32,125 nucleotides of DNA from IMG/VR virus record IMGVR_UViG_2703718850_000013; one strand, written 5' to 3'. This DNA comes from a virus. Taxonomy: Duplodnaviria; Heunggongvirae; Uroviricota; Caudoviricetes. Each line of letters opens with the position of its first letter. Position 1 is the stretch's first letter. Below are positions 1 through 30,826 of this stretch, piece after piece. The position numbers and the translations under genes were made by a program. The notes beneath the pieces were generated by a model, which was given only the letters and a program-made list of their open reading frames with translations, did not search any database and was not told the origin of the DNA.

Positions 1-489
1 ATGGCAAATAAAGCACGAGATTACGACAATACACCATTCCTACGCATTGCGGGGAATTTTGGAGACTATGACAACGATCTTACACCAGAAGCAAAACAGA
101 TAATTGATGAAGCAATAGCATCAGTCCCAATGGGTAACGGTAAGCCATATAGTGGATTTAAGATCTATTACATCGTTTTCAATTTGATCACATTCAGTAC
201 TGAGAAAGTTTTAGCCAGGTTACATCTTTACCAGGACTATCATATAAAAGAAGTTCAGGAACGTGTAAGTGAATCTACCGCAGTAAAGGTAAGGCGTGTA
301 GCAACCGCAGTATCAAAAGCTCTTATAGCAGCACATAAACGCAAAGTGAAGCTATTCAAAGTGCAAAAGGACGGAATGCACTACATAGACAACAAACAGT
401 TCTATGAGACGTTAGCAAACGCACATGATAGCGGAGCATCAGCAGAGGAACTAATTATTATTCTACAGGGTTTCATTGATGGTAAATGA
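1..489 (+). CDS. hypothetical protein (162 aa), function unknown
   Basis: Uninterrupted ORF starting with ATG at window position 1; no recognisable motif. May be N-terminally truncated by the window edge. Confidence 0.45.
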   Translation: MANKARDYDNTPFLRIAGNFGDYDNDLTPEAKQIIDEAIASVPMGNGKPYSGFKIYYIVFNLITFSTEKVLARLHLYQDYHIKEVQERVSESTAVKVRRVATAVSKALIAAHKRKVKLFKVQKDGMHYIDNKQFYETLANAHDSGASAEELIIILQGFIDGK

Positions 490-502
490 AGCATTTTTTA
501 AC

Positions 503-631
503 TCCATTAATGGAATGAGTTAATCCACTAATAGAGATTTTATTCCATTAATGGAGTGTTATATTCCAACATATATGGCTTGAAACCCGCATTCTACCGT
601 TGAAATTGTGAATTTTACTTCATTAATGGAA
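503..631. promoter_or_regulatory. cluster of three 12-bp palindromic sites (TCCATTAATGGA at 503-514 and 544-555; variant TCATTAATGGA at 620-630), operator-like
   Basis: Exact repeated dyad-symmetric sequence read directly from the intergenic region after the first ORF; a TCCACTAAT half-site also occurs at about 524-532. Confidence 0.4.
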
Positions 632-1117
632 CACTATAATATAATAACACATATAAAATGGACTGAAGTCCGAAGATCAAAACCTCGCAAGCTCGCCTTT
701 GATCTTAGAATTTATAACCAGACTTTCGCCCTTTCAGGTCGAGCAAGTCCTTTACTTGCTTTCGCTCAAACAAACCCCATGTACTCACCAAAGTGATTAA
801 TAAAGTATTTGGGGTCGACCTACGGTCTAAAGTATTCGTGAGTACTACGCGGTCGTAAACTCCCTTGTTTGGGTCGTTCGCTGTTGAAGCTCACTAAAGT
901 GAACCACTACCCATACTAGCTAGGAACTTAATTAATTAAAGTGTGAAGCCGCACCGCCGGATGAATACGCAACACACAAGCCACCGAGAGGCATACTATG
1001 AGGAAATGAAAGTGAGTAGGGAGTCTGTGTATACCCATTAGACTATGAAAATAAACTGGCCTTTATTATAGAATCACACCTTTTTAATAAATACCAGTAC
1101 TACAGAGGATAATAAAA

Positions 1118-1429
1118 ATGAAATTACTAAAAACTGAAGAGTATGATCTGTTTCACCGATACACGTATGAGGATCACAGTACTATGACAGTATTCACGGA
1201 TCAGATTGTCTACTTTAATCACCCAACACGTGTAGTACTGCAACGAGAAGGACTACAATTCTATCATCAGAAGATTGATGGTACTCAAATAAATGAAACA
1301 CCTGATCTATCTAGGATGAGTGAATCAGAACTATTCCAAGCAAGCTTAGCACTGCAAACAGAGATCGACATTAATCGATTAATTATTATTCAAACACAAA
1401 TGAATAAAATAAGTGAGGACTACGAATGA
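1118..1429 (+). CDS. hypothetical small protein (103 aa)
   Basis: ORF with GAGGA Shine-Dalgarno about 9 nt upstream of ATG; ATGA overlap with the next ORF suggests translational coupling. Confidence 0.5.
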   Translation: MKLLKTEEYDLFHRYTYEDHSTMTVFTDQIVYFNHPTRVVLQREGLQFYHQKIDGTQINETPDLSRMSESELFQASLALQTEIDINRLIIIQTQMNKISEDYE

Positions 1430-1626
1430 AAGGCGTCAATTTTATACACCATAACTATGGAGAGTACATCTATGAGTTTGATTTTAAAAAAGGAATTGTA
1501 GAAGTACTAGAGCTAGGTTATCAAGTAATTGAAAAGCATAACATACAATTATTGCAAGAACTACCTAGTACTAATCTACACAGAGATTTACTAATAGAAA
1601 TTTATTCAAAACACCAGATGCAATGA
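1426..1626 (+). CDS. hypothetical small protein (66 aa)
   Basis: ORF overlapping the upstream stop by 4 nt (ATGA). Confidence 0.4.
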   Translation: MKGVNFIHHNYGEYIYEFDFKKGIVEVLELGYQVIEKHNIQLLQELPSTNLHRDLLIEIYSKHQMQ

Positions 1627-1776
1627 TAAATCCGGTGTTTTAGAACTGATGCTTATTTGGGAAATGTAAACGTTTCTTTAATATGCATCCTTAATGATTT
1701 TGAATCAAGTATGACTTTTTCTATTAAGTCATCAGTAATTCTACAAACTTAATAGGTTTGCAAGATAGGGTATTAA

Positions 1777-2520
1777 TCATTTTTTCTTTAGAGTTATGAA
1801 GTTATCAATTGGATAGTTATCATCATATATATCTTTTATGAAAGATGAAATCTTATTGTGAAGTGAAATTGCTTTTGACTGTATAACGAAAAGCTCACTA
1901 CTAGTTTGATCCCTCACACATTCATCGGCCTGTATAAGTGCAGGAACCTCAGAACTTGCAATATAGAAATCGATACTCAGTCCGTTATATTCATCAATAT
2001 TTAATTTAAGTTCAGCAATAATGTTTTTTGTGTATTCGCTTAAAGCATAATTAGTTCTATCAATAGATTTTAAGGAATTAATAACGGAGTAAGAAGTGAA
2101 GAATAAATCGGAAACAAGAGCATCTGTTTCCTTCATAAACTCATCATGTGAATCTTGGGGTATGGTCTCGTTTTTTAAATGATTGCGATATTTTTTGGAG
2201 AATGTCACTAATTGATGTTTTAAAATTAAGGTTGAAGTACGTACTTTATTAAGATCTTGATAAATTGCTTTCTCAATAACACCATATACTACATCATAAT
2301 GTTTTTGCGACAACCATTCAGGTGCTTTTAGGTATGCTTGGTAGGCTACCCATAGTGTACCTAATGTACCTACAGCACTACATAATGTTCCAATTAAAGT
2401 TACCCACTCCCATCCTTTCGAACCAGAAAATAATATTTTTACACCAACTAATATAGCAATTAGCAGCAGTAATAGTACGGTACTTAGTAGTATTAAATTA
2501 TATTTTTTAATATTAAGCAT
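1777..2520 (-). CDS. 2TM membrane protein, paralog of 3498..4199 (start re-chosen at internal ATG)
   Basis: N-terminus MLNIKKYN...VKILFSGSKGWEW parallels MNIKTIN...VKVLFAGSRGFEW of the 3498..4199 product; two hydrophobic helices then an about 180-aa helical soluble region. The track start at 2568 adds 16 residues absent from the paralog. Confidence 0.6.
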   Translation of the reverse strand: MLNIKKYNLILLSTVLLLLLIAILVGVKILFSGSKGWEWVTLIGTLCSAVGTLGTLWVAYQAYLKAPEWLSQKHYDVVYGVIEKAIYQDLNKVRTSTLILKHQLVTFSKKYRNHLKNETIPQDSHDEFMKETDALVSDLFFTSYSVINSLKSIDRTNYALSEYTKNIIAELKLNIDEYNGLSIDFYIASSEVPALIQADECVRDQTSSELFVIQSKAISLHNKISSFIKDIYDDNYPIDNFITLKKK

Positions 2521-2584
2521 GTTAATCTCATTTCTTAAATAAAAGACATAGATGTATATATGTAGCATTGATGGATATATATTC

Positions 2585-2602
2585 CACTAATCATGATTAG
2601 TG
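2585..2602. promoter_or_regulatory. perfect 18-bp palindrome CACTAATCATGATTAGTG between two minus-strand genes
   Basis: Read directly; lies in the 118-nt gap between the 2639..3460 stop and the 2520 start, so it could be an operator or an attenuator hairpin. Confidence 0.3.
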
Positions 2603-2638
2603 CCTCTCTGATTAATAATGTGATACATGTCCATGTAA

Positions 2639-3460
2639 TTAATAACGGAAACTCCATGTTTTTCTACTCAAAGCTAACTTCTTATGGACAAGTAGAAATA
2701 CAAATATCTCATGGAGATATGGAACCAGAGGTTCTCTTATCCCTTTACTGTGCTCAATGTTGTCAATATCATCTTTAAATTTAGAAATTAGATAATAATA
2801 AGGCTGCAACATATCAATGATTTCAAACACAATATAAGGTGAAACGTTTATTACTTTCCAGGAAAGTATATACTCATCAATTTGGCTTAAAATCGCACCA
2901 TCAAGACCTCTATTCCAGGTGTAACCGTATGCTTTGTATTTGTCGGCCCATAAATTTAATTCTCTTTCTAGTTTTTGTTTTCTAGAATCAGTAATGTGTT
3001 TACGGAAGCAAGAATTAATTATTTCGTTCCACTGTGCTAACGGATCTTTGACTTCTTTTTTGCCTTTTACAATTTTATCAAGATTATAATATCTTGAAGC
3101 ATCAGCGAATTCAGAAAGCATTTCTAATATGAGGTTTTGCTGCCAGTTTAATTCCCACTCCAAATTGGGTAAATGGCTAGCACCATAGCTTGAACAGTTT
3201 TTATGAAGCTCCGCAATATTATGGCTGAATTTTTTAAGTGTACGGAAGTCTGGCTTCTCAAGATTATTTTCGATCATATGATTGAGTATGAAGATAATCT
3301 TAAAAAACCTTTCTATGCCAATTGATAATTGAAAGAAGCTGCTATAGAAGCTACCTTTATCATGTGCTCTACATTTCCGCACAGCAGTAAGCCCACCACC
3401 TATTGAGGTACTGGACAAATAAGACTCTACCATGAATTGATTAAATGACTCCCCAAGCAT
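2639..3460 (-). CDS. hypothetical cytoplasmic protein (273 aa), possible Abi/HEPN-like (weak)
   Basis: ORF with AAGGA Shine-Dalgarno 6 nt upstream of ATG at 3460; no TM segment; an R-x4-H motif (RKCRAH) near the N-terminus is the only HEPN-like hint. Confidence 0.55.
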   Translation of the reverse strand: MLGESFNQFMVESYLSSTSIGGGLTAVRKCRAHDKGSFYSSFFQLSIGIERFFKIIFILNHMIENNLEKPDFRTLKKFSHNIAELHKNCSSYGASHLPNLEWELNWQQNLILEMLSEFADASRYYNLDKIVKGKKEVKDPLAQWNEIINSCFRKHITDSRKQKLERELNLWADKYKAYGYTWNRGLDGAILSQIDEYILSWKVINVSPYIVFEIIDMLQPYYYLISKFKDDIDNIEHSKGIREPLVPYLHEIFVFLLVHKKLALSRKTWSFRY

Positions 3461-3497
3461 AAGCTTTCCTTTTTATTTACATCAATTAACTATAAAT

Positions 3498-4199
3498 TTA
3501 GCTGAACGAATAATCAGTATCAATATTTGTTTCACATAGCTCGTACTGAAATATGGCAGCTAGCTCTCTTTTAACACTTTCAAGATTTTCTGTAGCTGCA
3601 ATTACGTCCTCATGCTTGGGGCAATTAATATGTTTGCATATGGTCAATAGATATATATATTGATTGTCTAAATATGACTGCCTTAACTCTAATATATTTT
3701 TAAATAAATTTTCAAGCCGTTCGCTTAACTTAATATCAAACCTGGCTAGCATTGACCTTGTCGTATATAGCTTAGCAAGTTCAGATAAATCACTTGTGGC
3801 CTTTTTATTAATTTCAGCAGCAACTTTAGATTTTATTTCATCTGTCAGTTCTTTATTATCCTGAACATATTTCCTGATGGAAGCACGAACTATACCATCA
3901 TTATATAAACGTGAATTTATTTCCCATAACTGCATCTCAAATTTCATAGCCAACTGATGTGAGGTAGAAAGGGATTTTAATTTTTTATTCTGAACGAACC
4001 AATTATTTGCTACAAAAGCAGCACAAAGAGCTGTAGACGCAATCACGATATTGCATAACGCACTTGTTAAATCAGCTGCGTTCCCCCATTCAAACCCCCT
4101 GCTACCAGCGAATAGAACCTTAACGAGTACTAAGACTGCTAAAAACAGAAGTACTGCAACAATGCCGACAAGAGTAGAGTTTATAGTTTTTATATTCAT
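3498..4199 (-). CDS. 2TM membrane protein, paralog of 1777..2520
   Basis: Two N-terminal hydrophobic helices then a helical soluble domain; its ATG overlaps the upstream gene's TGA (ATGA at 4196-4199), implying coupling. Confidence 0.6.
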   Translation of the reverse strand: MNIKTINSTLVGIVAVLLFLAVLVLVKVLFAGSRGFEWGNAADLTSALCNIVIASTALCAAFVANNWFVQNKKLKSLSTSHQLAMKFEMQLWEINSRLYNDGIVRASIRKYVQDNKELTDEIKSKVAAEINKKATSDLSELAKLYTTRSMLARFDIKLSERLENLFKNILELRQSYLDNQYIYLLTICKHINCPKHEDVIAATENLESVKRELAAIFQYELCETNIDTDYSFS

Positions 4200-4747
4200 A
4201 ATTTATCAGCTATGTTAACTTCACTATAGAGCAAGCCTTTCAATTTCATCAAAGCTTCCCAAATTTCAGTTGGCTTACCGCTACAATTTCTAAGTAATAT
4301 TTCATCGTTTTCTTGTTTACTCAATGATGAATCATAAAACCGTGCTCCCAATTCTTCAAAATCATTTATAGCATTAGTAACCGTCCAAATCGCATCGTGA
4401 ATTTGTGGTGTCATGTATAATGTATAATCGAGAAGGAAGTCACTTGCTTTACTTTTAATTAAATCCTGTTTATAAAGCATAATTTGATCTAAAAGATCAC
4501 CATCATCATAAAAATTAAAATTTTCTGGAAGATTCAAAGAATTAATAAACTGAATGAAAGGTTTAATAGTTTGCTTTTTTTCTTTTAATTCATCTTCGAG
4601 TATTTTGAATAAAAGTTGTTTTTTTAGTTTTTCGTTCTCATATTTTTTAGTGATTAATTGGCTTGCCAATGTTACACCCGCAGCTATTAATGCACCGCCT
4701 AAAGTACCACCGACTGCAATGAGTTGTGTAATGGTTTCAGCTTCCAT
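4196..4747 (-). CDS. single-pass membrane protein (first gene of the putative four-gene operon; start re-chosen)
   Basis: One N-terminal TM helix (ITQLIAVGGTLGGALIAAGVTLA) then an about 150-aa soluble domain. The track start at 4771 is TTG; the ATG at 4745-4747 (MEAETITQ) is used here. No strong SD, so the start is uncertain. Confidence 0.5.
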   Translation of the reverse strand: MEAETITQLIAVGGTLGGALIAAGVTLASQLITKKYENEKLKKQLLFKILEDELKEKKQTIKPFIQFINSLNLPENFNFYDDGDLLDQIMLYKQDLIKSKASDFLLDYTLYMTPQIHDAIWTVTNAINDFEELGARFYDSSLSKQENDEILLRNCSGKPTEIWEALMKLKGLLYSEVNIADKL

Positions 4748-4818
4748 TTTTTTAGAAATCCAATATATCAAAGTGAAAAATGAACTTTACCATAATAACC
4801 ATTCTGGCGTAAACTATT

Positions 4819-4880
4819 AGCGACACGCCCCACTCATAAAGGGTAGGTTTGTTTAGTTGGTGTGTGTGGGACGTGTCGCT
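4819..4880. repeat. inverted repeat: 9-bp arms AGCGACACG (4819-4827) and CGTGTCGCT (4872-4880) with a 44-nt spacer
   Basis: Read directly; relatively GC-rich arms in an AT-rich intergenic region next to the octamer array. Confidence 0.5.
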
Positions 4881-4896
4881 GAACAGTTGGACTATG

Positions 4897-5024
4897 TTCT
4901 TATGTTCTTATGTTCTTATGTTCTTATGTTCTTATGTTCTTATGTTCTTATGTTCTTATGTTCTTATGTTCTTATGTTCTTATGTTCTTATGTTCTTATG
5001 TTCTTATGTTCTTATGTTCTTATG
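4897..5024. repeat. perfect tandem array, 16 x TTCTTATG (CATAAGAA on the minus strand)
   Basis: 128 nt of uninterrupted 8-nt periodicity read directly; intergenic between the HNH gene stop (5053) and the start of the 4747 operon. Confidence 0.95.
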
Positions 5025-5052
5025 TCTATATTTCTCAACCTTTAGTTGAAAA

Positions 5053-5856
5053 TCATTTAGGATAACTAACACAAGTATGACCAGAAATTACCATCATAAA
5101 TTGATTATTCTTTAAACCTACAAAGGGAAATGAAGCATAATCAATATTAGCCGTTGTCATATTAAAATGAAGAGATTGATCATATTGAGTCATTTCAGTT
5201 GCATGAATAGGAAATGTTCCTTGCTCCTTCAGTGTAACCAAAAAAGATATTGGGAAAAAATGTAAGCAAGAACATATACTATGATGTCCATTATTGTAGA
5301 ATGTAACTGACTGAGCAGTAATTTGTTTTCTGAATGGATAAAACCAATAGTAAATATTATGAGTTGCCCCAATGTCTGGATTCCTGCCTAATACAAAATT
5401 TCTCAATGGAGTATAAAAAGGACTATCAACAATAGGCTTCATACAATCTTTTACTGAAGTTGCAGCCAGAAGGTGTCCAATCATTGCTCTTAGAAATTTA
5501 TCCGCATCAAATTTTAATGAAATATAATTTTTGTAAAAGAACTTACCACTAAAATAATCATTTAACTTTTCGATGAATTCAGTTGTAACACGGCCTATTT
5601 CTGCATCCATTGATCCTAAAATATTCGAGTTACAATTGTGACAAATGGTACGAAAAGTTGTCCCGCTTTTTGCTTTAATTGGTGGTACTCGAGTATTAGA
5701 GAAATACTCAGAAATCGTTTTTTGTAACATAGGTGAAGGTTTAGATGCACATTGCGGGGGAACATGGTCTTTTTTTAATTTGCCAAAATTACCACATATT
5801 ACACAATATCCATTAGCTATTTTTACATGGTCAATTCTTTCAGAGACAAATTTCAT
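5053..5856 (-). CDS. HNH-endonuclease-domain protein with about 200-aa C-terminal extension of unknown function
   Basis: N-terminal CVICG-x7-DHVPP ... TICHNCN matches the HNH zinc-finger/His-Me pattern (CxxCG...DH..P...CxxCN). Confidence 0.6.
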   Translation of the reverse strand: MKFVSERIDHVKIANGYCVICGNFGKLKKDHVPPQCASKPSPMLQKTISEYFSNTRVPPIKAKSGTTFRTICHNCNSNILGSMDAEIGRVTTEFIEKLNDYFSGKFFYKNYISLKFDADKFLRAMIGHLLAATSVKDCMKPIVDSPFYTPLRNFVLGRNPDIGATHNIYYWFYPFRKQITAQSVTFYNNGHHSICSCLHFFPISFLVTLKEQGTFPIHATEMTQYDQSLHFNMTTANIDYASFPFVGLKNNQFMMVISGHTCVSYPK

Positions 5857-6179
5857 TCTGCAATCTCAAAAGTTAACATCACCAAAATATAGAGCATTCA
5901 AACACAATGTTCAATATGATTTTACTCTAACCAGTGTGCTATTTTTTATGCAAACTTATACATGGACGAATACTCAAACTGCGATAATAAACTGAAAATA
6001 TCGATATAAGAATTGATTTTATGAGTAATCATCATTATAGCCTATACCATGTAGCATTAACACTTTACCACCAAATAGAACATACATATACTATTGATTA
6101 TCGACCTAGGGTAAGTTTATCAATTATGGTACGATAGAATCTAAATAATCTATAGTAGCAAGAGGCTTAGGGGGAGATA

Positions 6180-6854
6180 ATGGAGTGGAAGAAAGAGCTT
6201 AGAGCAAAGTTTGAAAGAGACGAACTTAGAAGATTAATTTCTAATGTAAACTGGATTATATTCAAACCTAAAATAAAAAAGCAATTAGAAATACTATCAA
6301 CCCAATTATCAGGAGAGCATATAAGATTTAATATAATTGATATGCAAGATGAACCAGATGGTTATGGTTTTGATTGCCTGACATTTCAGATCGCTGATCG
6401 TATGACTGGAAATATGCGGCAGGAAAAAACTACCGAAAGCATAAAGTTTAATCATCATTGGCAAAAAGGAGCCGCACTTTCAATTACATATAGTGCGACG
6501 GGGGCTGTGCATATAATTCTTTTTCCGTCTACTTCAGATGATTCATTAGCAACACATGATTCCTTGATTGTCCATCATTCATATAACGTTAAACACATAA
6601 CACCAAAAAAAATAGAGAAAGCAGTAAAGAATTTACTTCATTATCACCGTGTTACAGGTGTTTTACACAAGGCCGCATTAAAAGATTTAATTTTAATCCG
6701 CTTACTGAAAATTAAGATGTTTTTTATTCAGTATAACGACAAAGAGAACAAGTTTAGAAGAGTTACAGCATTATATATACCTACATTAAGTCTTATAGTT
6801 TCGTTGGCTGCCGCAGTAGCATCTATTCTGGCATTAGTATCTGTTAAATCATGA
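6180..6854 (+). CDS. tail-anchored membrane protein (224 aa), unknown function
   Basis: Strong SD (GGGGGAG) before the ATG; single C-terminal hydrophobic helix (LSLIVSLAAAVASILALVSV); the only plus-strand gene in the island, convergent with the nucleotidyltransferase gene. Confidence 0.55.
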   Translation: MEWKKELRAKFERDELRRLISNVNWIIFKPKIKKQLEILSTQLSGEHIRFNIIDMQDEPDGYGFDCLTFQIADRMTGNMRQEKTTESIKFNHHWQKGAALSITYSATGAVHIILFPSTSDDSLATHDSLIVHHSYNVKHITPKKIEKAVKNLLHYHRVTGVLHKAALKDLILIRLLKIKMFFIQYNDKENKFRRVTALYIPTLSLIVSLAAAVASILALVSVKS

Positions 6855-6860
6855 TGATTA

Positions 6861-6890
6861 TAAGCCAGCAACTAACTGGCTTATAAATTA
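6861..6890 (+). terminator. putative intrinsic terminator after 6180..6854
   Basis: Stem TAAGCCAG / CTGGCTTA with 7-nt loop, followed by a T/A-rich tail, 7 nt after the stop codon. Confidence 0.45.
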
Positions 6891-7099
6891 GAAATTGGAA
6901 ACTATCTCTTCTCACAAAACTGCTATCTTTAGCGATAAGGGAATGTAATCTCCTGATACTGATGGTAGAGGAGCGGGTCATACAATCTTAGCAATCTCAT
7001 TTAGCTGTACGACGGTGGAATGTTTCAACTGTACTCAATTCTTACAAGTAAAAATATCGAGAATGATTTTTTGGATTCAAGCAAAGACAATGAGCTGTA

Positions 7100-7127
7100 C
7101 CCCCTTATAATTAGTAATATAAGGGGG
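7100..7127. terminator. hairpin CCCCCTTATA-loop-TATAAGGGGG between convergent genes
   Basis: 10-bp perfect stem with 8-nt loop, 5 nt downstream of the 7133..7909 stop; possibly bidirectional. Confidence 0.45.
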
Positions 7128-7132
7128 CAAGA

Positions 7133-7909
7133 TTATTTTATGGGTAAAATTTTCTTTATTTCATTTTCGGCGGCAAAATGATTGTTTAACTGCTCATAAT
7201 ATTTTGACATCATAACTGAATTTTTTAGACGCTGAATCTTATCTTTTTTCCATTGTGCGAGATAATAGGAACCTGAAAGTTGTTCTACAGCAGAGTAAAA
7301 ATATTCTTTAAGGGTAGAGCACCAAAAATAGTTAAAGCTAACAATATCTTTTTCAAGTTGATACGACTCAAAGACATAACCTGCATTGGCATTCCAATAT
7401 TTCATTATGCGAATAAGAGGCTTAATTAAATTGTTATTATTTTTATTGCAATTAGTTAAATCAGTATTGAACGCATTGGGATCGGTATTCATCCAACGGT
7501 TCAAAAAATCCTGGTTGGAAGGGATTTGATAACCAAATAAAATATTATGAGATGCAGGGACAAGCTCGAAAGTAATATGATTAAGGTTCAATTGAATAGT
7601 AGGGTGGCTTTGCTTTATTTCAGATGTACGATAGTAATAATTTACAAAACCCCTTAGCTTGTTTAGGTAGGTCTGAGGCTGATATATTACATTTTTGAAT
7701 ACAACCATATAATCAACATCAGAAGAAGGATCATAGCTACGAGGAAGCATTGTATTACGTGAATATGAGCCAAATACAAAATGACTAACAAGTTCACCAG
7801 CAAAATAACCATTCAGTCTGTTTTTTATGGTTGCAATTGAATTCGTTATTGTAATATCTCTTTGATAAGCATTGCTTTTAATAGACTCAAGATAGGTACT
7901 GACTGTCAT
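7133..7909 (-). CDS. pol-beta-type nucleotidyltransferase, SMODS/CD-NTase-like
   Basis: FGSYSRNT...SDVDY (hG[GS]-x9-13-DxD) plus a later acidic residue (FELVP); AAGGAA SD 6 nt upstream; start lies 2 nt after the upstream gene's stop. Confidence 0.6.
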   Translation of the reverse strand: MTVSTYLESIKSNAYQRDITITNSIATIKNRLNGYFAGELVSHFVFGSYSRNTMLPRSYDPSSDVDYMVVFKNVIYQPQTYLNKLRGFVNYYYRTSEIKQSHPTIQLNLNHITFELVPASHNILFGYQIPSNQDFLNRWMNTDPNAFNTDLTNCNKNNNNLIKPLIRIMKYWNANAGYVFESYQLEKDIVSFNYFWCSTLKEYFYSAVEQLSGSYYLAQWKKDKIQRLKNSVMMSKYYEQLNNHFAAENEIKKILPIK

Positions 7910-7911
7910 GT

Positions 7912-8415
7912 TTATTCCTTGTCAATATTATACTTAGTAAAGCCTTGGTTAACATCTCTTTGAGTTTTCTCATAAGCCCACCGAGGAATATTTGGCGAAC
8001 TTGAATTAAGTTGATTGCGTCGATCAGAGTAACTCGTAAGTTTTTCAATCAAAGTTTTATCAGTAAAATCAAAATTAGAAGTCAATATTTCCCTAAATAT
8101 TCTAACTTCATTCTTTAATTTATTATATTCATTTGCTGCTGATTTATGAAGTGCAGCACGCTTACTTGGGTTAAGAGACGTATTTAATGCAGTTAGAATT
8201 GTAGCAGTTATGGAAATAGCTACAACAGCATTGGCTGTACTCTTGATTGCGGCAATACCACTCAAAGCGGTTAAGATTGCTAATGGTACACCGAACCACA
8301 GATTCAGCTTATCCCATCTATCAGAAACATTATAATGAGATTTAGAAGAGTACAGAGCGTCCTCTTCTATACGATGACACTCAGAAATGACTGTTTGGAT
8401 GAGCTTCTGATTCAT
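7912..8415 (-). CDS. 2TM membrane protein, SLATT-like effector candidate (start re-chosen)
   Basis: About 40-aa N-terminal region, two TM helices (LWFGVPLAILTALSGIAAI; AVVAISITATILTAL), helical C-terminal region; tightly coupled to the nucleotidyltransferase gene. ATG at 8413-8415 has a GGAG SD; the track start is a GTG two codons upstream. Confidence 0.55.
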   Translation of the reverse strand: MNQKLIQTVISECHRIEEDALYSSKSHYNVSDRWDKLNLWFGVPLAILTALSGIAAIKSTANAVVAISITATILTALNTSLNPSKRAALHKSAANEYNKLKNEVRIFREILTSNFDFTDKTLIEKLTSYSDRRNQLNSSSPNIPRWAYEKTQRDVNQGFTKYNIDKE

Positions 8416-8579
8416 AAACACTCCAACAAATCCGATTCCCTAACAGTATAACATGGTAGGGTTAATAAATACTATAGGTACTTCCCTCTGAATAGACACA
8501 ATCGGGAAGTTTCGCCGCGAACTATTTTTTTTGCATATTAAATATTTTAAATAACACAAACAAAACCTGGATAAACAAA

Positions 8580-9101
8580 TTGAACGATAGATATACAACA
8601 AACGAAATTGCAGAACGTATGGGAGTTAATGACAGTACTGTAAGCCGTGAATGGGCAAAACGTGGAATGCCACACCCAAAGAAAGCAAGTAAAAAAGAAA
8701 TAGATCAATGGATACTAATTAATATTATCCAACCATTGCGAAATACTGATGTAAAAGAACAGATTGAAAAAGAGAAATTACGCAAGATATCACTTGAAGC
8801 AGATTTAGTTGAGATTGAATTAAATATCAGTACTGAAAAGGTATTGAGTACTGATTATGTAACTCAAACACTAACTGGTTATTTTGCAGCACTACGCGGA
8901 GTACTAAGAAGTATTCCGGCATCTATCTATGTAGAACTATTTGAAAGTGAAGATGCGGATACATTGCGGATAAAACTAGAAGAAAGGATTGATGAGAAAC
9001 TAAGGGAATTAGGATCATATGAGTACGAAGAACAGCCAGAAGAAGATGATGAAGATTCTGAACCAGAGTCTGAAATCAATATTACCCCCACCGAAGATTA
9101 A
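8580..9101 (+). CDS. terminase small subunit, lambda Nu1-like
   Basis: N-terminal HTH TNEIAERMGVNDSTVSREWAKRGMP resembles Nu1 (…IRTIQNWQEQGMP) and EKEKLRK resembles Nu1 ENEKLRR; acidic C-terminus. Track start is TTG with no clear SD, so the true start is uncertain. Confidence 0.6.
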   Translation: MNDRYTTNEIAERMGVNDSTVSREWAKRGMPHPKKASKKEIDQWILINIIQPLRNTDVKEQIEKEKLRKISLEADLVEIELNISTEKVLSTDYVTQTLTGYFAALRGVLRSIPASIYVELFESEDADTLRIKLEERIDEKLRELGSYEYEEQPEEDDEDSEPESEINITPTED

Positions 9102-10938
9102 ACCATCTGAATGGTGTGAACAATATACTGTATTTCCAGATGGACCACTGGCACAACAAAAAACTAAATTATTTTCATTTCAAGTAGAACCCCTAAACGC
9201 CACAGTAGATCCATCAGTACAGAAGATCTGTTTAATGAGTAGTGCACAATTACTCAAGACAACAATACTACAAAATGCAATGCTTTACAGGATGGCAAAT
9301 AAACCCTCCCATATGATATTTGCGGGTAGTAGTGGTAGTACTGTGAAAAAGTTCCGTACTGGTAAATGGATGGATACTATTAATGCGTGTCCAAACCTTC
9401 AAGCATTAATCACTGACAAATCAGATAAGAATGCAGTAAACGATCTACACACTCAACAGAACGTTGACGGTACTAAGACATACTTTGTTAACCTCAATTC
9501 TAGCCAGTCCCTACGCTCGCTTACAGTTCCTGCAATCTTCATTGATGAATTATCAGGTGTAGATCCAGAACAAGATGAGGGCAACCCCCTATCACTCATA
9601 GAACAGCGTGCAACTCAGTTTGGTAAGAACTCCCTGATCGTGATGGCCTCCACACCATTAGTACAGGACGATATGATCTGCCAGCAATGGGAACTCTCAG
9701 ACCAGAGACATTTTCATGTCGTGTGTCCACATTGTGATCATGACCATATTTTAGAATGGGAGAATATAAAGTTTGAATGGGTGAAGTTCAACGAACGACG
9801 TAATGCACCAGAACCCACTACAGCACGCCTACACTGTCCAGGATGTGATGAAGTAATCACTGAAGGGCAACGTGCACGGATGGTTGCAAAAGGTTACTGG
9901 AAAGCACACAGACTGCATGTGATGGGTTTCAGGGGATACCATGTTAATAGACTATATTCACCGATTACTACTATTGAGAAGATTGTTGAAGACTTTAAGA
10001 ACTCATGGATAAACTTTGAAGAACAATCTTTCTATAATAACGTACTCGGTTTACCGTGGGTAGATAAGAATAATATTAAAGAAGATCTTACAGTACTGGA
10101 AAACTTACGCGACTTTGATTTAGATGTAAAACATATTCCAGATAATGCACTTGGTATTGTACTGGCATGTGACCAACAGATAGACCGCTTAGAATGTAGT
10201 ACTATTGCATTTGATGAAAAGAATATATGGGTTCTGGACCACCGTATGTTTTATGGTGTCGATTGTACTAAGTATGAAGATAAGGCATATACTGAACTAC
10301 TTAATTATAGTAAGAGTATATTTAAAACCACTTCAGGTAGAAAAGTACCAGTACTGAGATCCTTTATTGATAGCTCAAACGGATCTGCAACCAGTTCCAT
10401 ATATCGCTTTTGTTCTTCCAGTGGGGGACGATGGCATGCAATTAAGGGTGCAAACACACAGACTGGTCCCATCACGAAGGATTCCACAACGGCAGGACAT
10501 CAACTGGTTAATATTAATACTCAAGTACTGAAGCACCAGGTTAAGAAGTTATTACGACAGGCATGTGAAGGGGGAGAGTATAGTACTAATATACACTTCA
10601 GTCATTCCCTTGTCGATGATTACTTCCTCCAACTTACAGCAGAAAAACTAGTACGAAAAGGTTCAGTGATGGTATGGGAGAATCCAAATGGAGAGCGTAA
10701 CGAATGTCTCGATACGCTCGTCTACTCATTAGCAGCGATTGATCACAAGATACAGGCACTTGGTGCACAACCGTATAGGAAGTTGCGAGAGTATAGAGCT
10801 AAACAAAAAGAACTAAATACTAAAGTAGAAGAATCCATAAAAACTAAAGCAGAACAACAACCAGTACAGAAAGAGAAGCAGAAATCAAAACCTAAGAAAA
10901 AAGGACTTTCAGCACTTAATAATCGTAACTGGTTTTAA
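9019..10938 (+). CDS. terminase large subunit, GpA-like
   Basis: 639 aa, immediately after TerS, with cysteine/histidine clusters (CPHCDHDH; CPGCDE); AGGA SD before ATG 9019; overlaps TerS by 83 nt (alternative ATGs at 9046/9049). Confidence 0.8.
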   Translation: MSTKNSQKKMMKILNQSLKSILPPPKIKPSEWCEQYTVFPDGPLAQQKTKLFSFQVEPLNATVDPSVQKICLMSSAQLLKTTILQNAMLYRMANKPSHMIFAGSSGSTVKKFRTGKWMDTINACPNLQALITDKSDKNAVNDLHTQQNVDGTKTYFVNLNSSQSLRSLTVPAIFIDELSGVDPEQDEGNPLSLIEQRATQFGKNSLIVMASTPLVQDDMICQQWELSDQRHFHVVCPHCDHDHILEWENIKFEWVKFNERRNAPEPTTARLHCPGCDEVITEGQRARMVAKGYWKAHRLHVMGFRGYHVNRLYSPITTIEKIVEDFKNSWINFEEQSFYNNVLGLPWVDKNNIKEDLTVLENLRDFDLDVKHIPDNALGIVLACDQQIDRLECSTIAFDEKNIWVLDHRMFYGVDCTKYEDKAYTELLNYSKSIFKTTSGRKVPVLRSFIDSSNGSATSSIYRFCSSSGGRWHAIKGANTQTGPITKDSTTAGHQLVNINTQVLKHQVKKLLRQACEGGEYSTNIHFSHSLVDDYFLQLTAEKLVRKGSVMVWENPNGERNECLDTLVYSLAAIDHKIQALGAQPYRKLREYRAKQKELNTKVEESIKTKAEQQPVQKEKQKSKPKKKGLSALNNRNWF

Positions 10939-11436: not shown

Positions 11437-12429
11437 ATGTTTAATTTTAATTTTAGAAAGGCAAAGGAACAGCCAAAAGAAGAACCAAAACTATATATTG
11501 GTAAGGCAAAAATACGTACTGAACCAGTACTTGGTAATTTAGGTATTGAAACCAAACGTTCCATTTCTTCCATCGGTAACGGTAACGCAGCCGCACAACT
11601 TGGTACATTTGGTGCAGTTGGTAAGAGTGGCTCGATCAATGCCGTAATTAACCGTGTATTGAACACGGCAGTACTACAAAGTCGCCAGCTTAGTATGAGT
11701 AACCCAATTCATAAGAAGTATATTGCACAGAATGCCAGTAGTGTATGTGGTGCAAATGGTATTACGTATCGTCCATGTGTTCACGTTGCTGAAGATGACA
11801 ATGTTAATAATGATATTAATAAACGTCTCGCCGATGCGTTCTACTCATGGTGTGAAGACCCCGCACGTTTTTCCCTAAATGGAAAACTTGAAATGTCCAA
11901 ATTCCAGTCACTGGTAGAGAAGACACGTTCAATTGATGGTAGTTGTTTTATTCGTATCCATCCTGGTATGAAGATTGAAGTACTAGACAGTACTGTAATT
12001 GATACGAAAGGTAATCAATGGCTAAGTAATGGTAACTATCGTTCAAATGGTATTGAGTTTGAAAAAGGCACTGGTAAACCCGTTGCTTACTTTCTAACAC
12101 AATATGACCCCGTATCGTACTCAGTTAGTACTGAAGCAGAACGTGTACCCGCAGAAGAGATCCTTCACTTATTCAGTACTGACTATCCAGAACAGCAACG
12201 CGGCATTCCCGATATATTTTGCGGTACTGGACTACTGGCAGACCTGGATAAATTCATGAGGGCGTCAATCAAGACGCGACAATTAGCAGCGGAAAGCATG
12301 GGTTTTATCACGAATGCGTCACGTGATGCATCATTTGAAGATATTGATGATGATGACGATTCTGATGTAGATGAATACCAGGTTGCACGTATGGAGGGTG
12401 GAGTACTGTTAGAACTTCGTGAGGGTTAA
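11437..12429 (+). CDS. portal protein, N-terminal segment (ends at an in-frame TAA)
   Basis: Position after TerL; weak resemblance to lambda gpB from memory; followed in the same frame by 12433..12948. Confidence 0.6.
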   Translation: MFNFNFRKAKEQPKEEPKLYIGKAKIRTEPVLGNLGIETKRSISSIGNGNAAAQLGTFGAVGKSGSINAVINRVLNTAVLQSRQLSMSNPIHKKYIAQNASSVCGANGITYRPCVHVAEDDNVNNDINKRLADAFYSWCEDPARFSLNGKLEMSKFQSLVEKTRSIDGSCFIRIHPGMKIEVLDSTVIDTKGNQWLSNGNYRSNGIEFEKGTGKPVAYFLTQYDPVSYSVSTEAERVPAEEILHLFSTDYPEQQRGIPDIFCGTGLLADLDKFMRASIKTRQLAAESMGFITNASRDASFEDIDDDDDSDVDEYQVARMEGGVLLELREG

Positions 12430-12898
12430 GATGTGAAGTCACTCAGTCCATCACAAACATTCGACGCACTACAGGAATTTCTAGATAACCAGTTGATTTT
12501 CATAGGGATGTCACTCGATCTTACACCACAGACGTTAACAGGTTCGACCGCAGGGGCATCATTCAGTGCCTCGAAGTTAACAGACAAAATTCAGCAAAAT
12601 ACATTTCTTGCAAAACAAAACAACCTGGTTAAGTCAGTACTTCAACCTTTGTATATTAAGTGGCTCAAGAATGAAATGCTAAATAACCCGATGTTGAAGG
12701 ATTTGCCATTTAGTAAATTTACTGAACTAACTGAATGTAATTTCATTCCACAACGTCATATTAGTCTAGACCCACTGAAAGATTTACAGACTGAGATTCT
12801 CGCAATGGAAAATGGATTAAAGAGTAAAGAACAAATAATTTCTGAGATGGGCTATTCACCAGTACTAACCCATGAGCAGATTACTAAGGAAGAAACAG

Positions 12899-15014
<2,116 letters not shown>

Positions 15015-28985: not shown

Positions 28986-29010
28986 GGGGCATTAATGCCC
29001 CTTTTTATTT
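28986..29010. terminator. bidirectional intrinsic terminator GGGGCATTAATGCCCC + T-tract
   Basis: Perfect 16-bp palindrome flanked by an A-run upstream and a T-run downstream, between convergent genes; it overlaps the endolysin stop codon. Confidence 0.7.
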
Positions 29011-29451
29011 GTTAATTAAATCTTTAATCATCTGGTTAAGTCTATTCGGTGTCTGACGATACCATAAACTATCCTTTGCCTGTTTAATTGCTTCTGTGTA
29101 ATTATTGTTTAGTAATGCAATGATCATCTTTTTAAACTTCTTAGTACCACTTAAGCCTAACTGAAAAATCATGATAACCATGAAGTCTTCCCAGTCCTGT
29201 GGTAATTTCAAATTTAAGGTAGATAAATTACGTTTGGCAATGCCAATATCTTTATCCAGTAGTTTATCTGCTTCATCCTCGTTAATGCCGTTAGGGAACG
29301 TCTCAGAGGCTTTTAGAAGATGTCCATATCCAATCGTATCTTTGTTCTCACTACATTTATACACCCAGAATTTACCATTGCGATAATAACCCATATGGGC
29401 CTGGTATTCTTTCGTACCTTCATATATTTTTAATTTTTCTATTAAACACAT
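29005..29451 (-). CDS. endolysin, GH24 T4-lysozyme-like (start corrected)
   Basis: DTIGYGHLL and SLWYRQTPNRLNQMI align with T4 lysozyme TIGIGHLL and SRWYNQTPNRAKRVI; the ATG at 29449-29451 has a GAGG SD, whereas the track start at 29505 adds 18 residues with no counterpart. Confidence 0.85.
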   Translation of the reverse strand: MCLIEKLKIYEGTKEYQAHMGYYRNGKFWVYKCSENKDTIGYGHLLKASETFPNGINEDEADKLLDKDIGIAKRNLSTLNLKLPQDWEDFMVIMIFQLGLSGTKKFKKMIIALLNNNYTEAIKQAKDSLWYRQTPNRLNQMIKDLINK

Positions 29452-29487
29452 AAATACCTCATAAACTATTATTTGTGGGGTATTTAT

Positions 29488-29916
29488 ATGAAATGGACAA
29501 TGCATGATCCTGAGACATGGGATTATGAAGATATAAATGACGGGAGGTATGCAGCTTTTGTATATATGATCACTTTTGACGATGGTTCATATTATTTTGG
29601 TGTAAAGTCAATCTTCAAAAGTATTCGGGATGTAAAGAAGCTGAAGCCAACTACAAAGGAATCCAACTGGGAGAATTATTATTCTTCCTCGAAGAAGGTG
29701 CAGGCAATGGTTGATTCAGGCCTGAACTATGAAAAACAAATACTATGGTGTTTCAGAACGACGAATGAAGCTGAGCAAGTAGAAGCGGCATTGATTCTAT
29801 TCTTAGGACAGCAATCAAATAATTTAAATCTTGCCGTGATGTGCAAAGTACGGCTTGGTAAAAATCGTTCTGAAACATTCAAAGTACTGCAACAATTATT
29901 AGAGAGGTTATCATGA
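29488..29916 (+). CDS. hypothetical protein, possible stand-alone GIY-YIG nuclease domain
   Basis: FVY-x10-YFG then Arg, Glu and Asn at roughly GIY-YIG spacing; weak. Start set at ATG 29488 (track start 29473 is TTG). Confidence 0.35.
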   Translation: MKWTMHDPETWDYEDINDGRYAAFVYMITFDDGSYYFGVKSIFKSIRDVKKLKPTTKESNWENYYSSSKKVQAMVDSGLNYEKQILWCFRTTNEAEQVEAALILFLGQQSNNLNLAVMCKVRLGKNRSETFKVLQQLLERLS

Positions 29917-30506: not shown

Positions 30507-30826
30507 TGAATATACTTGATCAATATCCCTGTTATGACCATACCGTACTGGATGAATTCCTATTTCAAAACGTCAAACCTGTAAGTGTTACTTTGCCATA
30601 TGACAAAGTGTTTTCGGGTAGCAAGTTAATTAAAAAGAAGGTAGATAAGAGTAAAGGGGATTTGATCGTATTCAGTTTCAATCTAAACAATATTCCGAAT
30701 GTTAATGATGGTGATGTACTCGATACAGTATGTCTTGGTGATAATAAGACAGTAGCAGTACTGTCATGCTTTAATCAAGTCTACAAAGGTCATCGCGTTT
30801 GGTCTGTCGTATGCCAGTTACAATAA
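30494..30826 (+). CDS. hypothetical protein (110 aa)
   Basis: ORF overlapping the upstream gene end; no motif. Confidence 0.4.
   Translation: MEKIMNILDQYPCYDHTVLDEFLFQNVKPVSVTLPYDKVFSGSKLIKKKVDKSKGDLIVFSFNLNNIPNVNDGDVLDTVCLGDNKTVAVLSCFNQVYKGHRVWSVVCQLQ

What the first reader, a model, noticed from the sequence alone, without database searches (positions are those of the whole stretch)
1777..8421. Accessory island with opposite polarity and different composition from the morphogenesis operon
All but one gene between about 1777 and 8421 are on the minus strand, whereas the remaining genes out to about 29 kb are on the plus strand apart from the endolysin. The island is dominated by membrane proteins and nuclease or nucleotidyltransferase domains, and it nearly lacks the AGTACT motif that saturates the structural genes. 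This is consistent with a horizontally acquired moron or defence cargo region just upstream of the terminase genes.
Basis: partly seen in the sequence, partly recalled or inferred. Interest (0 to 1): 0.6.

Follow-up and report, generated by a model that had tools for sequence, protein, structure and literature searches.

The report
Prophage defence-gene slot before terminase
This 6.6-kb stretch is the swappable accessory-gene slot of an uncharacterised, AT-rich E. coli prophage, and it carries a known suicide-type anti-phage system (CBASS) plus several unstudied genes; this kind of region is already well known.

Summary
Window 1777-8421 holds eight genes, seven on the minus strand. It lies between the integrase-proximal small genes and terS/terL of an E. 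coli prophage.

**Composition.** GC is lower than in the backbone (0.33 v 0.38), but silent-site GC is not significantly different. The island has 2 AGTACT sites, which is what chance predicts. The backbone is the anomaly, with 59 sites against 6.4 expected.

**Contents.**
- H+G (7133-8415) is a type I CBASS: a SLATT two-helix membrane effector and a CD-NTase.
- E is an HNH-like Cys/His protein with no fold relative. It also sits in a variable locus of a P2-like phage.
- B has a HEPN fold but lacks the canonical motif.
- A and C belong to an unnamed two-helix membrane family that recurs in this slot.
- D and F are single-helix membrane proteins.

**Variability.** In about 25 relatives from more than 15 genera the same position holds different cargo: Old nuclease, PLD nuclease, PDC-S29, PDC-S31, methyltransferases, or CBASS again.

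**Spread.** In 85 of 5,426 complete E. coli genomes only the island survives, bounded by IS3 and IS100.

**Unexpected.** A perfect 8-bp repeat (4893-5025) has 1 to 16 units among near-identical copies.

Verdict: a new member of a known kind.

The parts
1627..1776 (.). Left junction of the slot
   Evidence: Homology to L002 runs through 1577-1732 and then breaks until 4070. The IS3-bounded remnants in 85 E. coli genomes start at window 1670.
1777..2520 (-). A: membrane protein with two N-terminal helices (247 aa; the ORF extends to 2568). Member of the unnamed A/C family, which has a variable C-terminal domain.
   Evidence: Transmembrane helices at residues 9-27 and 40-58. 84 clusters in 1.84 billion representatives, many matching only the N-terminus. 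No Pfam family. Homologues lie on the minus strand in this slot in L003, L007 and others.
2639..3460 (-). B: soluble all-alpha protein of 273 aa with a HEPN-like fold. Candidate RNase or toxin.
3498..4199 (-). C: membrane protein with two N-terminal helices (233 aa), a paralogue of A in its N-terminal part
   Evidence: 42% identity to A over 64 residues. Transmembrane helices at 13-31 and 46-64. 51% identical homologue next to a B homologue in L017. Contains the island's only two AGTACT sites.
4196..4747 (-). D: membrane protein with one helix (183 aa; the ORF extends to 4771). Overlaps the start of C by 4 nt.
   Evidence: 85-92% identical copies lie immediately upstream of an A/C-family gene in L002 and L033.
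4812..4888 (-). Conserved long hairpin between the 8-bp repeat and D
   Evidence: Free energy -34 kcal/mol, z = -6.5 against shuffles. Both arms are conserved in L002, where a T-to-C change turns a G-U pair into G-C. No U-tract follows. No Rfam match.
4893..5025 (.). Perfect octanucleotide repeat (TATGTTCT)x16.6, intergenic, starting 27 nt after the E stop codon
   Evidence: TRF reports 100% matches. Whole-unit counts among near-identical E. coli copies are 16, 7, 5, 5, 5, 4, 4, 3, 3, 2, 2 and 1. The minus strand has stop codons in all frames. The plus-strand ORFs end within 40 nt of the repeat.
5053..5856 (-). E: 267-aa Cys/His metal-binding, HNH-like protein of unknown fold (phrog_21495; named 'chaperonin' by NCBI)
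5886..5914 (-). Promoter-like site upstream of E (TTGAAC-17-TATATT)
   Evidence: Consensus scan. This is a consensus match only. The scan found no more promoter-like sites than shuffles give.
6180..6854 (+). F: 224-aa protein with a C-terminal membrane anchor and no known family. The only plus-strand gene in the island.
   Evidence: 95% aa identity in L002 and 67% in Buttiauxella L046, which has no CBASS. Truncated in L022.
7133..7909 (-). G: CD-NTase (SMODS) cyclase of a type I CBASS
   Evidence: Pfam SMODS 108.6 bits against a cutoff of 26.5. PADLOC Cyclase PDLC00769 375 bits. Aligns to the solved B. cereus CdnD (9sa4) with GS, DVD and an E at the position of the third acidic residue.
7912..8415 (-). 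H: SLATT effector with two membrane helices. First gene of the H-G operon, separated from G by 2 nt.
   Evidence: NCBIfam SLATT_4 141 bits against a cutoff of 55. PADLOC 2TM Effector PDLC00712 234 bits. Transmembrane helices near residues 39-57 and 63-81.
8422..8579 (.). Right junction: the intergenic region between divergent H and terS
   Evidence: 93% identical to L002. terS at 8580-9101 (phrog_57) and terL at 9019-10938 (GpA_ATPase and GpA_nuclease) follow.

Best explanation
Window 1777-8421 is the variable accessory (moron/defence) slot of a temperate phage-like element. The element integrates with a large serine recombinase and packages with a lambda gpA-type terminase. In E. coli strain N61 it lies between yggS and yggR.

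The slot sits between the integrase-proximal small genes and terS. Most of it is transcribed away from the late operon. From that orientation I infer that its genes can be expressed in the lysogen independently of virion genes.

It is a mosaic of separately mobile modules:
1. **H-G, a type I CBASS.** By analogy with studied CBASS systems, the CD-NTase G makes a cyclic nucleotide signal on infection. The SLATT protein H then permeabilises the inner membrane, and the cell dies before the invading phage matures. This mechanism is inferred from family membership, not shown here.
2. **F**, a tail-anchored membrane protein of unknown role.
3. **E**, a stand-alone HNH-like metal-binding protein. It also occupies a variable locus of a P2-like phage.
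4. **D-C-B-A.** Three small membrane proteins and a HEPN-fold protein, probably read as one operon with E. These are candidate abortive-infection or superinfection-exclusion genes.

In front of D-C-B-A lie a hypermutable 8-bp repeat and a stable hairpin. Together they may tune expression of that operon.

Modules are exchanged between phage lineages by recombination at conserved flanks. The whole slot, with terS and a terL stub, has also been captured between IS3 and IS100 in a leuX-type genomic island. It persists there without the phage.
For: **Position and flanks.**
- terS and terL lie immediately to the right.
- In N61 and in relatives, a serine recombinase plus small ORFs lie to the left.

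**Variability.**
- The first relatives fetched gave nine different slot configurations, and 18 further species-level genomes gave more.
- Defence genes appear in other relatives' slots.

**CBASS identity.**
- SMODS, SLATT_4 and PADLOC matches are all far above threshold.
- Catalytic motifs align to a solved CD-NTase.
- No Cap2, Cap3 or HORMA neighbours are present.
- CBASS sits at the same spot beside terS in L002, L032 (77% nt) and Rouxiella L048 (58% and 64% aa).

**Recent exchange.**
- H, G and F are 98.2, 97.7 and 96.6% identical in nucleotides to L002, and 95-96% at third positions.
- terS, terL and capsid are 85.3, 79.4 and 84.0% identical.
- A, B and most of C are replaced outright in L002.

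**Backbone signature.** AGTACT is written into 27 of 56 Ser-Thr and 27 of 47 Val-Leu dipeptides in core genes, but into 0 of 11 and 2 of 7 in the island. Cargo genes in relatives also lack it, whichever strand they are on.

**Persistence without the phage.**
- 85 of 5,426 complete E. coli genomes hold only window 1670 to about 9500 at 99.7% identity, with the same IS3 and IS100 ends, in different serotypes.
- The virion genes decay independently. The portal is broken at three different places and N61 has an IS3 in a tail gene.

**Modules.**
- B has a HEPN fold.
- An E homologue lies in P2-like phage pro147.

**Repeat.** The 8-bp repeat has seven alleles.
Against: - No experiment shows defence by any of these genes. 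Only 2 of the 8 genes match a known defence family.
- Silent-site GC does not separate the island from the backbone, so composition alone does not prove foreign origin.
- The A/C family recurs in 7 of 9 and then 7 of 18 relatives' slots, always on the minus strand. That part may be an old, phage-linked function rather than acquired cargo.
- B lacks the HEPN catalytic Rx4-6H motif.
- E has no significant HNH Pfam match and no fold match.
- A SLATT-only effector has no recognisable nucleotide-binding domain. Direct activation by a cyclic nucleotide is therefore assumed, not demonstrated.
- The promoter scan found no more sites than shuffles give (36 against 40.4), so the operon structure is inferred from spacing only.
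Confidence: 0.8

Rival explanations
1. The minus-strand block is the phage's own ancestral lysogeny, immunity or exclusion module. It would be comparable to lambda cI-rexAB, which is also transcribed against the lytic genes. On this view it is not horizontally acquired cargo, and the A/C membrane family is its conserved core.
For: - A/C-family genes occur on the minus strand in this slot in 7 of 9 and 7 of 18 relatives across many genera.
- GC3 of the island is not significantly different from the backbone.
- No repressor or replication module was recognised anywhere else in the element, so some regulatory function could be hiding here.
Against: - None of the eight proteins has a DNA-binding domain.
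- The A/C family is absent from L008, L032 and 11 of the 18 further relatives.
- Every other gene in the slot is replaced between relatives.
- F-G-H are far more similar between lineages than the backbone is.
- The AGTACT backbone signature is missing.
- The block survives and spreads without the phage.
Confidence: 0.12
2. The island originated in an E. coli chromosomal genomic island and the phage picked it up. The phage copy would then be secondary.
For: The island is about 85 times commoner in the leuX-type genomic island than in an intact prophage among complete genomes. It sits among other defence and resistance genes there, such as dptF and tet(B).
Against: - The chromosomal copy includes terS and the first roughly 165 codons of terL, cut by IS100, and is cut on the left by IS3. 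It is therefore a fragment of the phage.
- The same modules sit beside terS in prophages of other genera, for example CBASS and E in Rouxiella L048.
Confidence: 0.04
3. G-H is not a conventional infection-activated CBASS. Instead it would be a guard system with inverted logic, like Panoptes. The small cyclase would constitutively make a nucleotide that holds the two-helix effector off, and phage sponges or nucleases would release it.
For: - G is short for a CD-NTase (258 aa).
- H has no recognisable nucleotide-sensor domain.
- Cyclase plus two-helix-effector pairs with inverted logic have been shown for mCpol/OptE (PMC12657218).
Against: - G is a SMODS/Pol-beta CD-NTase, not an mCpol.
- H is a SLATT protein, not an S-2TM-beta protein.
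- Both match PADLOC CBASS cyclase and effector models almost end to end.
- There is no evidence about constitutive activity.
Confidence: 0.07
4. The 8-bp repeat is a neutral, slippage-prone microsatellite with no regulatory role.
For: - It is intergenic.
- No ORF of useful length depends on its frame.
- No promoter-like site was reported in the D-E spacer.
- The commonest form (the 85 remnants) and L002 have a single unit.
Against: It lies directly between two co-oriented genes and next to a strongly conserved hairpin. Seven alleles occur among 12 loci that are otherwise about 99.9% identical. Position and instability are compatible with neutrality, so this rival is not weak.
Confidence: 0.5

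Closest known systems
Type I CBASS with a two-helix (SLATT) membrane effector (SMODS-SLATT pairs of Burroughs et al. 2015; CBASS classification of Millman et al. 2020; both cited from my own knowledge)
   Same: A two-gene operon of a SMODS CD-NTase and a SLATT protein with no ancillary Cap genes. Both match the PADLOC CBASS cyclase and 2TM effector models nearly end to end.
   Different: It is carried by a prophage directly beside terS. The effector comes first. The cyclase is short (258 aa). By alignment to 9sa4 the third catalytic acidic residue appears to be Glu. The signal molecule and the trigger are unknown.
Defence hotspots of temperate phages and satellites (P2 and P4 hotspots, Rousset et al. 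2022, PMC9122126)
   Same: A fixed position between conserved phage genes, whose content differs between relatives and is rich in known and unknown anti-phage genes. The E family also sits in a variable locus of the P2-like phage pro147.
   Different: The phage family is different and has no sequenced isolate; the best TerL identity to GenBank phages is 34%. The slot lies between the integrase end and terS. One membrane-protein family recurs in it. The slot has been excised by IS elements into a chromosomal island.
Lambda-type morons and exclusion genes transcribed in the lysogen (rexAB, sieB, bor, lom; from my own knowledge)
   Same: Non-essential genes inside a prophage, set apart from the late operon, several of them membrane proteins.
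   Different: No sequence relationship was found to any of them in Pfam, PHROGs, NCBIfam or PADLOC.
Simple-sequence-repeat contingency loci, for example the 7-bp repeats upstream of hmw1A/hmw2A in Haemophilus influenzae (from my own knowledge)
   Same: A perfect short tandem repeat in a non-coding 5' region whose unit number differs between otherwise near-identical genomes.
   Different: The host is E. coli, where phase variation by such repeats is unusual. The unit is 8 bp. No effect on expression has been shown. The repeat is not between recognisable -35 and -10 elements.
HEPN-domain toxins and abortive-infection proteins (the HEPN/MNT toxin 7ae2; the HEPN domain of AbiA, 8oz7)
   Different: B is about twice their size (273 aa), has no adjacent MNT-type antitoxin gene and lacks the Rx4-6H motif.

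Membership tests
Type I CBASS | A CD-NTase (SMODS / Pol-beta fold) gene | tested here: met
   Pfam SMODS 108.6 bits against a cutoff of 26.5. PADLOC Cyclase PDLC00769 scores 375 bits over residues 1-256.
Type I CBASS | Catalytic GS ... DxD ... D residues of the nucleotidyltransferase | tested here: inconclusive
   The G-S motif (residues about 47-48) and the D-V-D motif (about 65-67) of G align with GS and DVD of the solved CdnD 9sa4. The 9sa5 chain carries N at the first Asp. The third acidic position aligns as E in FELVP against D in MDVVP. Activity was not tested.
Type I CBASS | An effector gene in the same operon | tested here: met
   H is a SLATT_4 protein (141 bits against a cutoff of 55) and matches PADLOC 2TM Effector at 234 bits. 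It lies 2 nt upstream of G on the same strand.
Type I CBASS | No Cap2/Cap3 (E1-E2/JAB) or HORMA/TRIP13 ancillary genes | tested here: met
   The neighbours are F (no family) and terS. No such domains appear anywhere in 1-9200.
Type I CBASS | Cyclic nucleotide synthesis on infection and protection from phage | not testable with these tools
   Requires biochemistry and plaque assays.
Prophage defence/moron hotspot | A fixed position between conserved phage genes | tested here: met
   The slot lies between the serine recombinase with its small ORFs and terS in all family members examined.
Prophage defence/moron hotspot | Content differs between related phages | tested here: met
   The arrangement differs in each lineage. 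A, B and C are replaced even in the 85%-TerL relative L002.
Prophage defence/moron hotspot | Known defence systems found in the slot in several relatives | tested here: met
   CBASS four times, Old, a PLD nuclease, PDC-S29, PDC-S31 and methyltransferase-like genes.
HEPN domain (protein B) | The all-alpha HEPN fold | tested here: met
HEPN domain (protein B) | The Rx4-6H catalytic motif | tested here: not met
   None of the invariant columns forms Rx4-6H. The R27-x4-H32 stretch of the window protein is not conserved across the family. B therefore looks like a HEPN protein but is not filed as a catalytic HEPN RNase.
HNH nuclease (protein E) | A significant match to an HNH profile or to the beta-beta-alpha-metal fold | tested here: not met
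SLATT family (proteins A and C) | Profile similarity to SLATT | tested here: not met
   NCBIfam SLATT_1 gives only E = 0.088. hhalign of the A/C alignment against H gives a probability of 0.1%. None of 40 family members matches a SLATT Pfam model.
Simple-sequence-repeat contingency locus | A perfect tandem repeat whose copy number is polymorphic between near-identical genomes | tested here: met
   16.6 perfect units. Alleles of 1, 2, 3, 4, 5, 7 and 16 units.
Simple-sequence-repeat contingency locus | The repeat lies in a reading frame or promoter so that unit number switches expression | tested here: inconclusive
   It is not in a usable ORF. It lies in the E-D spacer with no scan-level promoter. 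Any effect on transcription is untested.

The most novel reading that the evidence does not exclude
D-C-B-A, possibly together with E, is a new abortive-infection or superinfection-exclusion system. It would be built from a diversifying family of two-helix membrane proteins (A/C), a one-helix partner (D) and a non-canonical HEPN-fold protein (B). Its expression in E. coli would be set by a hypermutable octanucleotide repeat, which would be repeat-based phase variation of phage defence in a species not known for it. In addition, the AGTACT signature would be a backbone-specific mark that the cargo escapes.
Probability: 0.2. Interest if true: 0.65.

Novelty: new member of a known kind. Interest (0 to 1): 0.42.

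Why it matters
The main result is confirmatory. Temperate phages keep a swappable slot of anti-phage genes, and this window adds one more phage family and one more slot position to that picture.

Three things give it some extra value:
1. The slot is a compact source of untested candidate defence genes: E, B, the A/C family, D and F. These recur across Enterobacterales at a position that also holds CBASS, Old, PLD, PDC-S29 and PDC-S31.
2. It gives a clear example of how phage cargo outlives its phage. The island, cut out by IS3 and IS100, is present in about 1.6% of complete E. coli genomes, while the intact prophage is present in one.
3. The 8-bp repeat offers a simple test of whether E. coli tunes a prophage operon by repeat slippage.

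Tried and rejected
**Searches that found nothing**
- Megablast of the island and of the structural genes against GenBank phages gave no match. Megablast against plasmids gave no match.
- The first genome-contig scan, using TerL alone, found nothing. Repeating it with a TerL alignment worked.
- The Rfam scan of 1-9200 found no family.
- Literature searches for CAGTACTG and for 8xMP returned only noise.
- The afdb50 fold library was unavailable.

**Proteins that could not be placed**
- The A/C family is not SLATT-related: hhalign probability 0.1% and no Pfam family among 40 members. D is not related to A/C.
- F is not related to the 224-aa gene near the E homologue in Morganella. It did not match the 224-aa EAL gene at the same position in Klebsiella.

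**Ideas rejected**
- I considered that AGTACT absence reflects strand or transcription unit. This is rejected because the motif is a palindrome, and because plus-strand cargo in L002 also lacks it.
- I considered Chi enrichment as the counterpart of AGTACT in family members that lack it. This is rejected because full Chi occurs only 0-3 times per 12 kb, and the GGTGGT excess is strand-biased and therefore codon-level.
- I considered translational phase variation through the 8-bp repeat. This is rejected because the minus strand has stops in all frames and the plus-strand ORFs end within 40 nt of the repeat.

Full report
**1. The observation**

The window is a phage-like element.
- terS lies at 8580-9101 (phrog_57) and terL at 9019-10938 (GpA_ATPase and GpA_nuclease).
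- Portal, capsid, tail and lysis genes follow on the plus strand.
- Between 1777 and 8421 there are eight plausible genes, seven on the minus strand and one (F, 6180-6854) on the plus strand.
- The only minus-strand gene between terS and 29.5 kb is a lysozyme at 29005-29505.

Five of the eight island proteins have predicted membrane helices. One is a nucleotidyltransferase and one has HNH-like motifs.

Composition:
- Per-gene GC is 0.329 in the island against 0.380 in the core (p = 1.7e-5).
- Tetranucleotide usage correlates less well with the core (0.78-0.80 against 0.87-0.95).
- Third-position GC does not differ significantly (0.259 against 0.290, p = 0.12).

AGTACT is enriched across the window, with 71 sites against 9.4 expected.
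- The island's 2 sites equal its chance expectation of 1.5-2.3.
- The stretch 8422-29000 has 59 sites against 6.4 expected.
- At core density, 19 sites would be expected in the island (P of 2 or fewer = 1e-6).

The description is therefore correct. The better wording is that the backbone is saturated with the motif and the island is ordinary.

**2. Host and element**

Exact-sequence look-ups place every island protein in Escherichia coli.

In strain N61 the element lies between yggS and yggR. A large serine recombinase sits at its left end. The element is about 36 kb including an IS3 insertion. The window starts just right of the recombinase and its tiny ORFs.

An IMG/VR contig (L001) is the same element at 99.97% identity.

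No sequenced phage is close. Megablast finds nothing, and the best TerL identity to GenBank phages is 34%.

TerL relatives at 38-85% identity are prophages of Klebsiella, Citrobacter, Edwardsiella, Enterobacter, Serratia, Yersinia, Leclercia, Rouxiella and others. Their structural genes are 36-44% GC whatever the host.

**3. What the island contains**

*H and G* (7912-8415 and 7133-7909) form a type I CBASS.
- G matches Pfam SMODS (108.6 bits) and PADLOC cyclase PDLC00769 (375 bits, end to end).
- H matches NCBIfam SLATT_4 (141 bits) and PADLOC 2TM effector PDLC00712 (234 bits).
- The two genes are 2 nt apart, with the effector first, and no Cap2, Cap3 or HORMA gene is nearby.
- G aligns to the solved B. 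cereus CdnD with GS and DVD conserved and Glu at the third acidic position.

*E* (5053-5856) belongs to a family of about 42 clusters of 267-275 aa in Gammaproteobacteria. NCBI mislabels it 'chaperonin'.
- It has invariant CxxC, DH and CxxCN residues and two invariant His.
- A 51% homologue sits alone, on the opposite strand, between the tail-fibre-assembly and sheath genes of the P2-like phage pro147. From my own knowledge this is the variable Z/fun locus of P2.
- In Morganella it lies in a small integrative element.

*B* (2639-3460) has only seven sequence clusters.
- It lacks Rx4-6H.
- It stands alone in Yersinia and one other host, and is paired with a C homologue in an Enterobacter member of the same prophage family.

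*A and C* share an N-terminal two-helix module, 42% identical over 64 residues, and differ in their C-terminal domains.
- The family has 84 clusters at 50% identity in 1.84 billion representatives.
- Many of these match only the N-terminus.
- It has no Pfam family and no detectable link to SLATT.

*D* (one helix) overlaps the start of C by 4 nt. It is 85-92% identical in L002 and L033, always just upstream of an A/C gene.

*F* is a tail-anchored protein with no family.

**4. The repeat and the hairpin**

Between the E stop codon (5053) and D lies a perfect (TATGTTCT)x16.6 array at 4893-5025. On the minus strand it is followed by a hairpin of -34 kcal/mol (z = -6.5) that is conserved in L002.

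Whole-unit counts among E. coli copies that are otherwise 99.9% or more identical are:

| Units | Copies |
|---|---|
| 16 | window |
| 7 | L025 |
| 5 | L001, N61, L023 |
| 4 | L024, L026 |
| 3 | L027, L029 |
| 2 | L022, L028 |
| 1 | the remnants, and L002 |

The repeat is not in a usable reading frame, and no scan-level promoter lies in the spacer.

By eye, the single-unit form reads TTGAGA-N16-CATAGT, a weak promoter-like match. Extra units replace the final T of the second hexamer. I offer this only as a testable idea. Neutral slippage is an equally good explanation.

**5. Synteny**

The interval between the recombinase and terS differs in every lineage:

| Locus | Host | Slot content |
|---|---|---|
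| L002 (TerL 85%) | unknown (sequencing-run assembly SRR31617685) | D, E, F, G, H shared; a single 208-aa A/C gene replaces A-B-C; also a helicase-like gene |
| L003 | Klebsiella | a 209-aa A/C gene, a 104-aa gene and an EAL protein |
| L007 | Citrobacter | 8xMP, an A homologue and an HNH |
| L008 | E. coli | an Old-family nuclease |
| L011 | Edwardsiella | a DEAD-like helicase, a methyltransferase-like gene and a 216-aa A/C gene |
| L032 | E. coli | a 77%-identical CBASS, again beside terS |
| L033 | E. coli | D plus two A/C genes |

Eighteen further species-level genomes each show a different ORF pattern.
- A/C-family hits occur in 7 of them, always on the minus strand.
- CBASS and E occur in Rouxiella.
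- F occurs in Buttiauxella.
- A PLD nuclease, a dynamin-like GTPase with PDC-S29, PDC-S31 and methyltransferases occur elsewhere.

**6. Evidence for exchange**

Nucleotide identity between the window and L002 is:

| Gene | Identity (%) |
|---|---|
| H | 98.2 |
| G | 97.7 |
| F | 96.6 |
| E | 93.2 |
| D | 88.8 |
| terS | 85.3 |
| terL | 79.4 |
| capsid | 84.0 |

Third positions follow the same trend. So F-G-H moved between the lineages after the backbones diverged.

The A-B-C segment (window 1733-4069) is bounded by sequence shared with L002 on both sides.

The AGTACT mark supports the same conclusion. It is written into about half of all synonymous opportunities in core genes and almost none in the island. 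Cargo in relatives lacks it on either strand.

**7. Fate of the island**

Among 5,426 complete E. coli genomes, 101 have some match.
- One (N61) has the whole region.
- 85 have only window 1670 to about 9500, at 99.7% identity.

In 55989, an O18:H1 strain and an APEC O2:K1:H5 strain the fragment has identical ends. IS3 lies on the left and IS100 cuts terL after about 165 codons. In the APEC O2:K1:H5 strain it sits in a genomic island next to tRNA-Leu. The neighbouring genes differ between strains and include dptF and tet(B).

The direction of transfer is therefore from phage to chromosome.

Meanwhile the virion genes decay in the full-length copies:
- a portal nonsense codon at 12427 in the window and L030 (TAA for CAA)
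- different portal breaks in L024 and L025
- F truncated in L022
- IS3 inserted in a tail gene in N61
- terL and portal fragmented in L032 and L033

**8. Mechanism**

*Shown here:*
- gene identities
- slot variability
- recent exchange
- persistence without the phage

*Inferred from family knowledge:*
- G senses infection and makes a cyclic nucleotide.
- H then disrupts the membrane and causes abortive infection.

*Inferred from arrangement only:*
- E-D-C-B-A is one leftward operon.
- The island is expressed in lysogens.
- B, E and the membrane proteins are further exclusion or abortive-infection factors.

A Panoptes-like inverted logic for G-H cannot be excluded.

**9. Verdict**

It is an instance of a well-known phenomenon, the prophage defence or moron hotspot, in a phage family that has not been described. 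It carries an already annotated CBASS.

The parts that could repay work are the uncharacterised E, B and A/C-D genes, the hypervariable 8-bp repeat, and the family-wide AGTACT signature, which lies outside this finding.

Noticed in passing
window 1-1776 and 8422-31131; also L002, L003, L011 and L038-L054: AGTACT (extended CAGTACTG) is the most over-represented hexamer of the phage backbone, with 59 sites against 6.4 expected (z = 20.8). It falls in two reading frames: 30 as Ser-Thr, 32 as Val-Leu and 5 in the third frame. It takes up about half of all Ser-Thr and Val-Leu dipeptides, so selection acts at the DNA level. The same enrichment (25-74 sites per 12 kb) occurs in about 20 of 24 family members across more than 12 genera. 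It is absent from four of them, including E. coli L008 with 0 sites against 5.6 expected. No cause was found.
   Followed up: partly
whole window; L002-L011, L037-L054: The whole prophage family is 36-44% GC, with GC3 about 0.29 in this window, in hosts of 50-59% GC. No sequenced phage isolate is close; the best TerL identity is 34%.
   Followed up: partly
window 12427-12429: The portal gene is split by an in-frame TAA (11437-12429 plus 12433-12948). N61 has CAA at this position. Other copies have the portal broken elsewhere (L024, L025), and L032 and L033 have fragmented terL. The prophages are decaying independently.
   Followed up: yes
window 1-1776 and 29000-32125; N61 record 792624-828788 (L012, L018): The E. 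coli element, about 36 kb between yggS and yggR, has no recognisable replication or repressor module. Relatives L002, L011, L032, L042, L044 and L045 carry a 645-1035-aa gene left of the slot, which is helicase-like in L002, L011 and L032 (the three scanned). This element lacks that gene.
   Followed up: partly
window 29005-32125: A second low-GC stretch (0.33) lies at the right end. It holds a minus-strand lysozyme, a SegE-like GIY-YIG endonuclease (29473-29916), three small plus-strand ORFs of unknown function, and a 320-aa minus-strand ORF (31163-32125) with no family match that abuts the attachment end. This may be a second cargo region.
   Followed up: partly
window 498-568: An imperfect 20-21-bp tandem repeat of about 3 copies (consensus TCCATTAATGGAGTGTTTTAT) lies in the intergenic region just after the first ORF. 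It could be a protein-binding site.
   Followed up: no
L002 4358-4386: The closest other lineage has a different perfect 8-bp repeat, (GTGAAGCA)x3.6, at the left edge of its cargo region.
   Followed up: no
L011 6926-8335, L038 3633-4427, L054 5406-6254: Type II DNA methyltransferase-like genes occur in the slot of three AGTACT-rich relatives. Whether they relate to the motif is unknown. The window itself has no recognisable methyltransferase.
   Followed up: no
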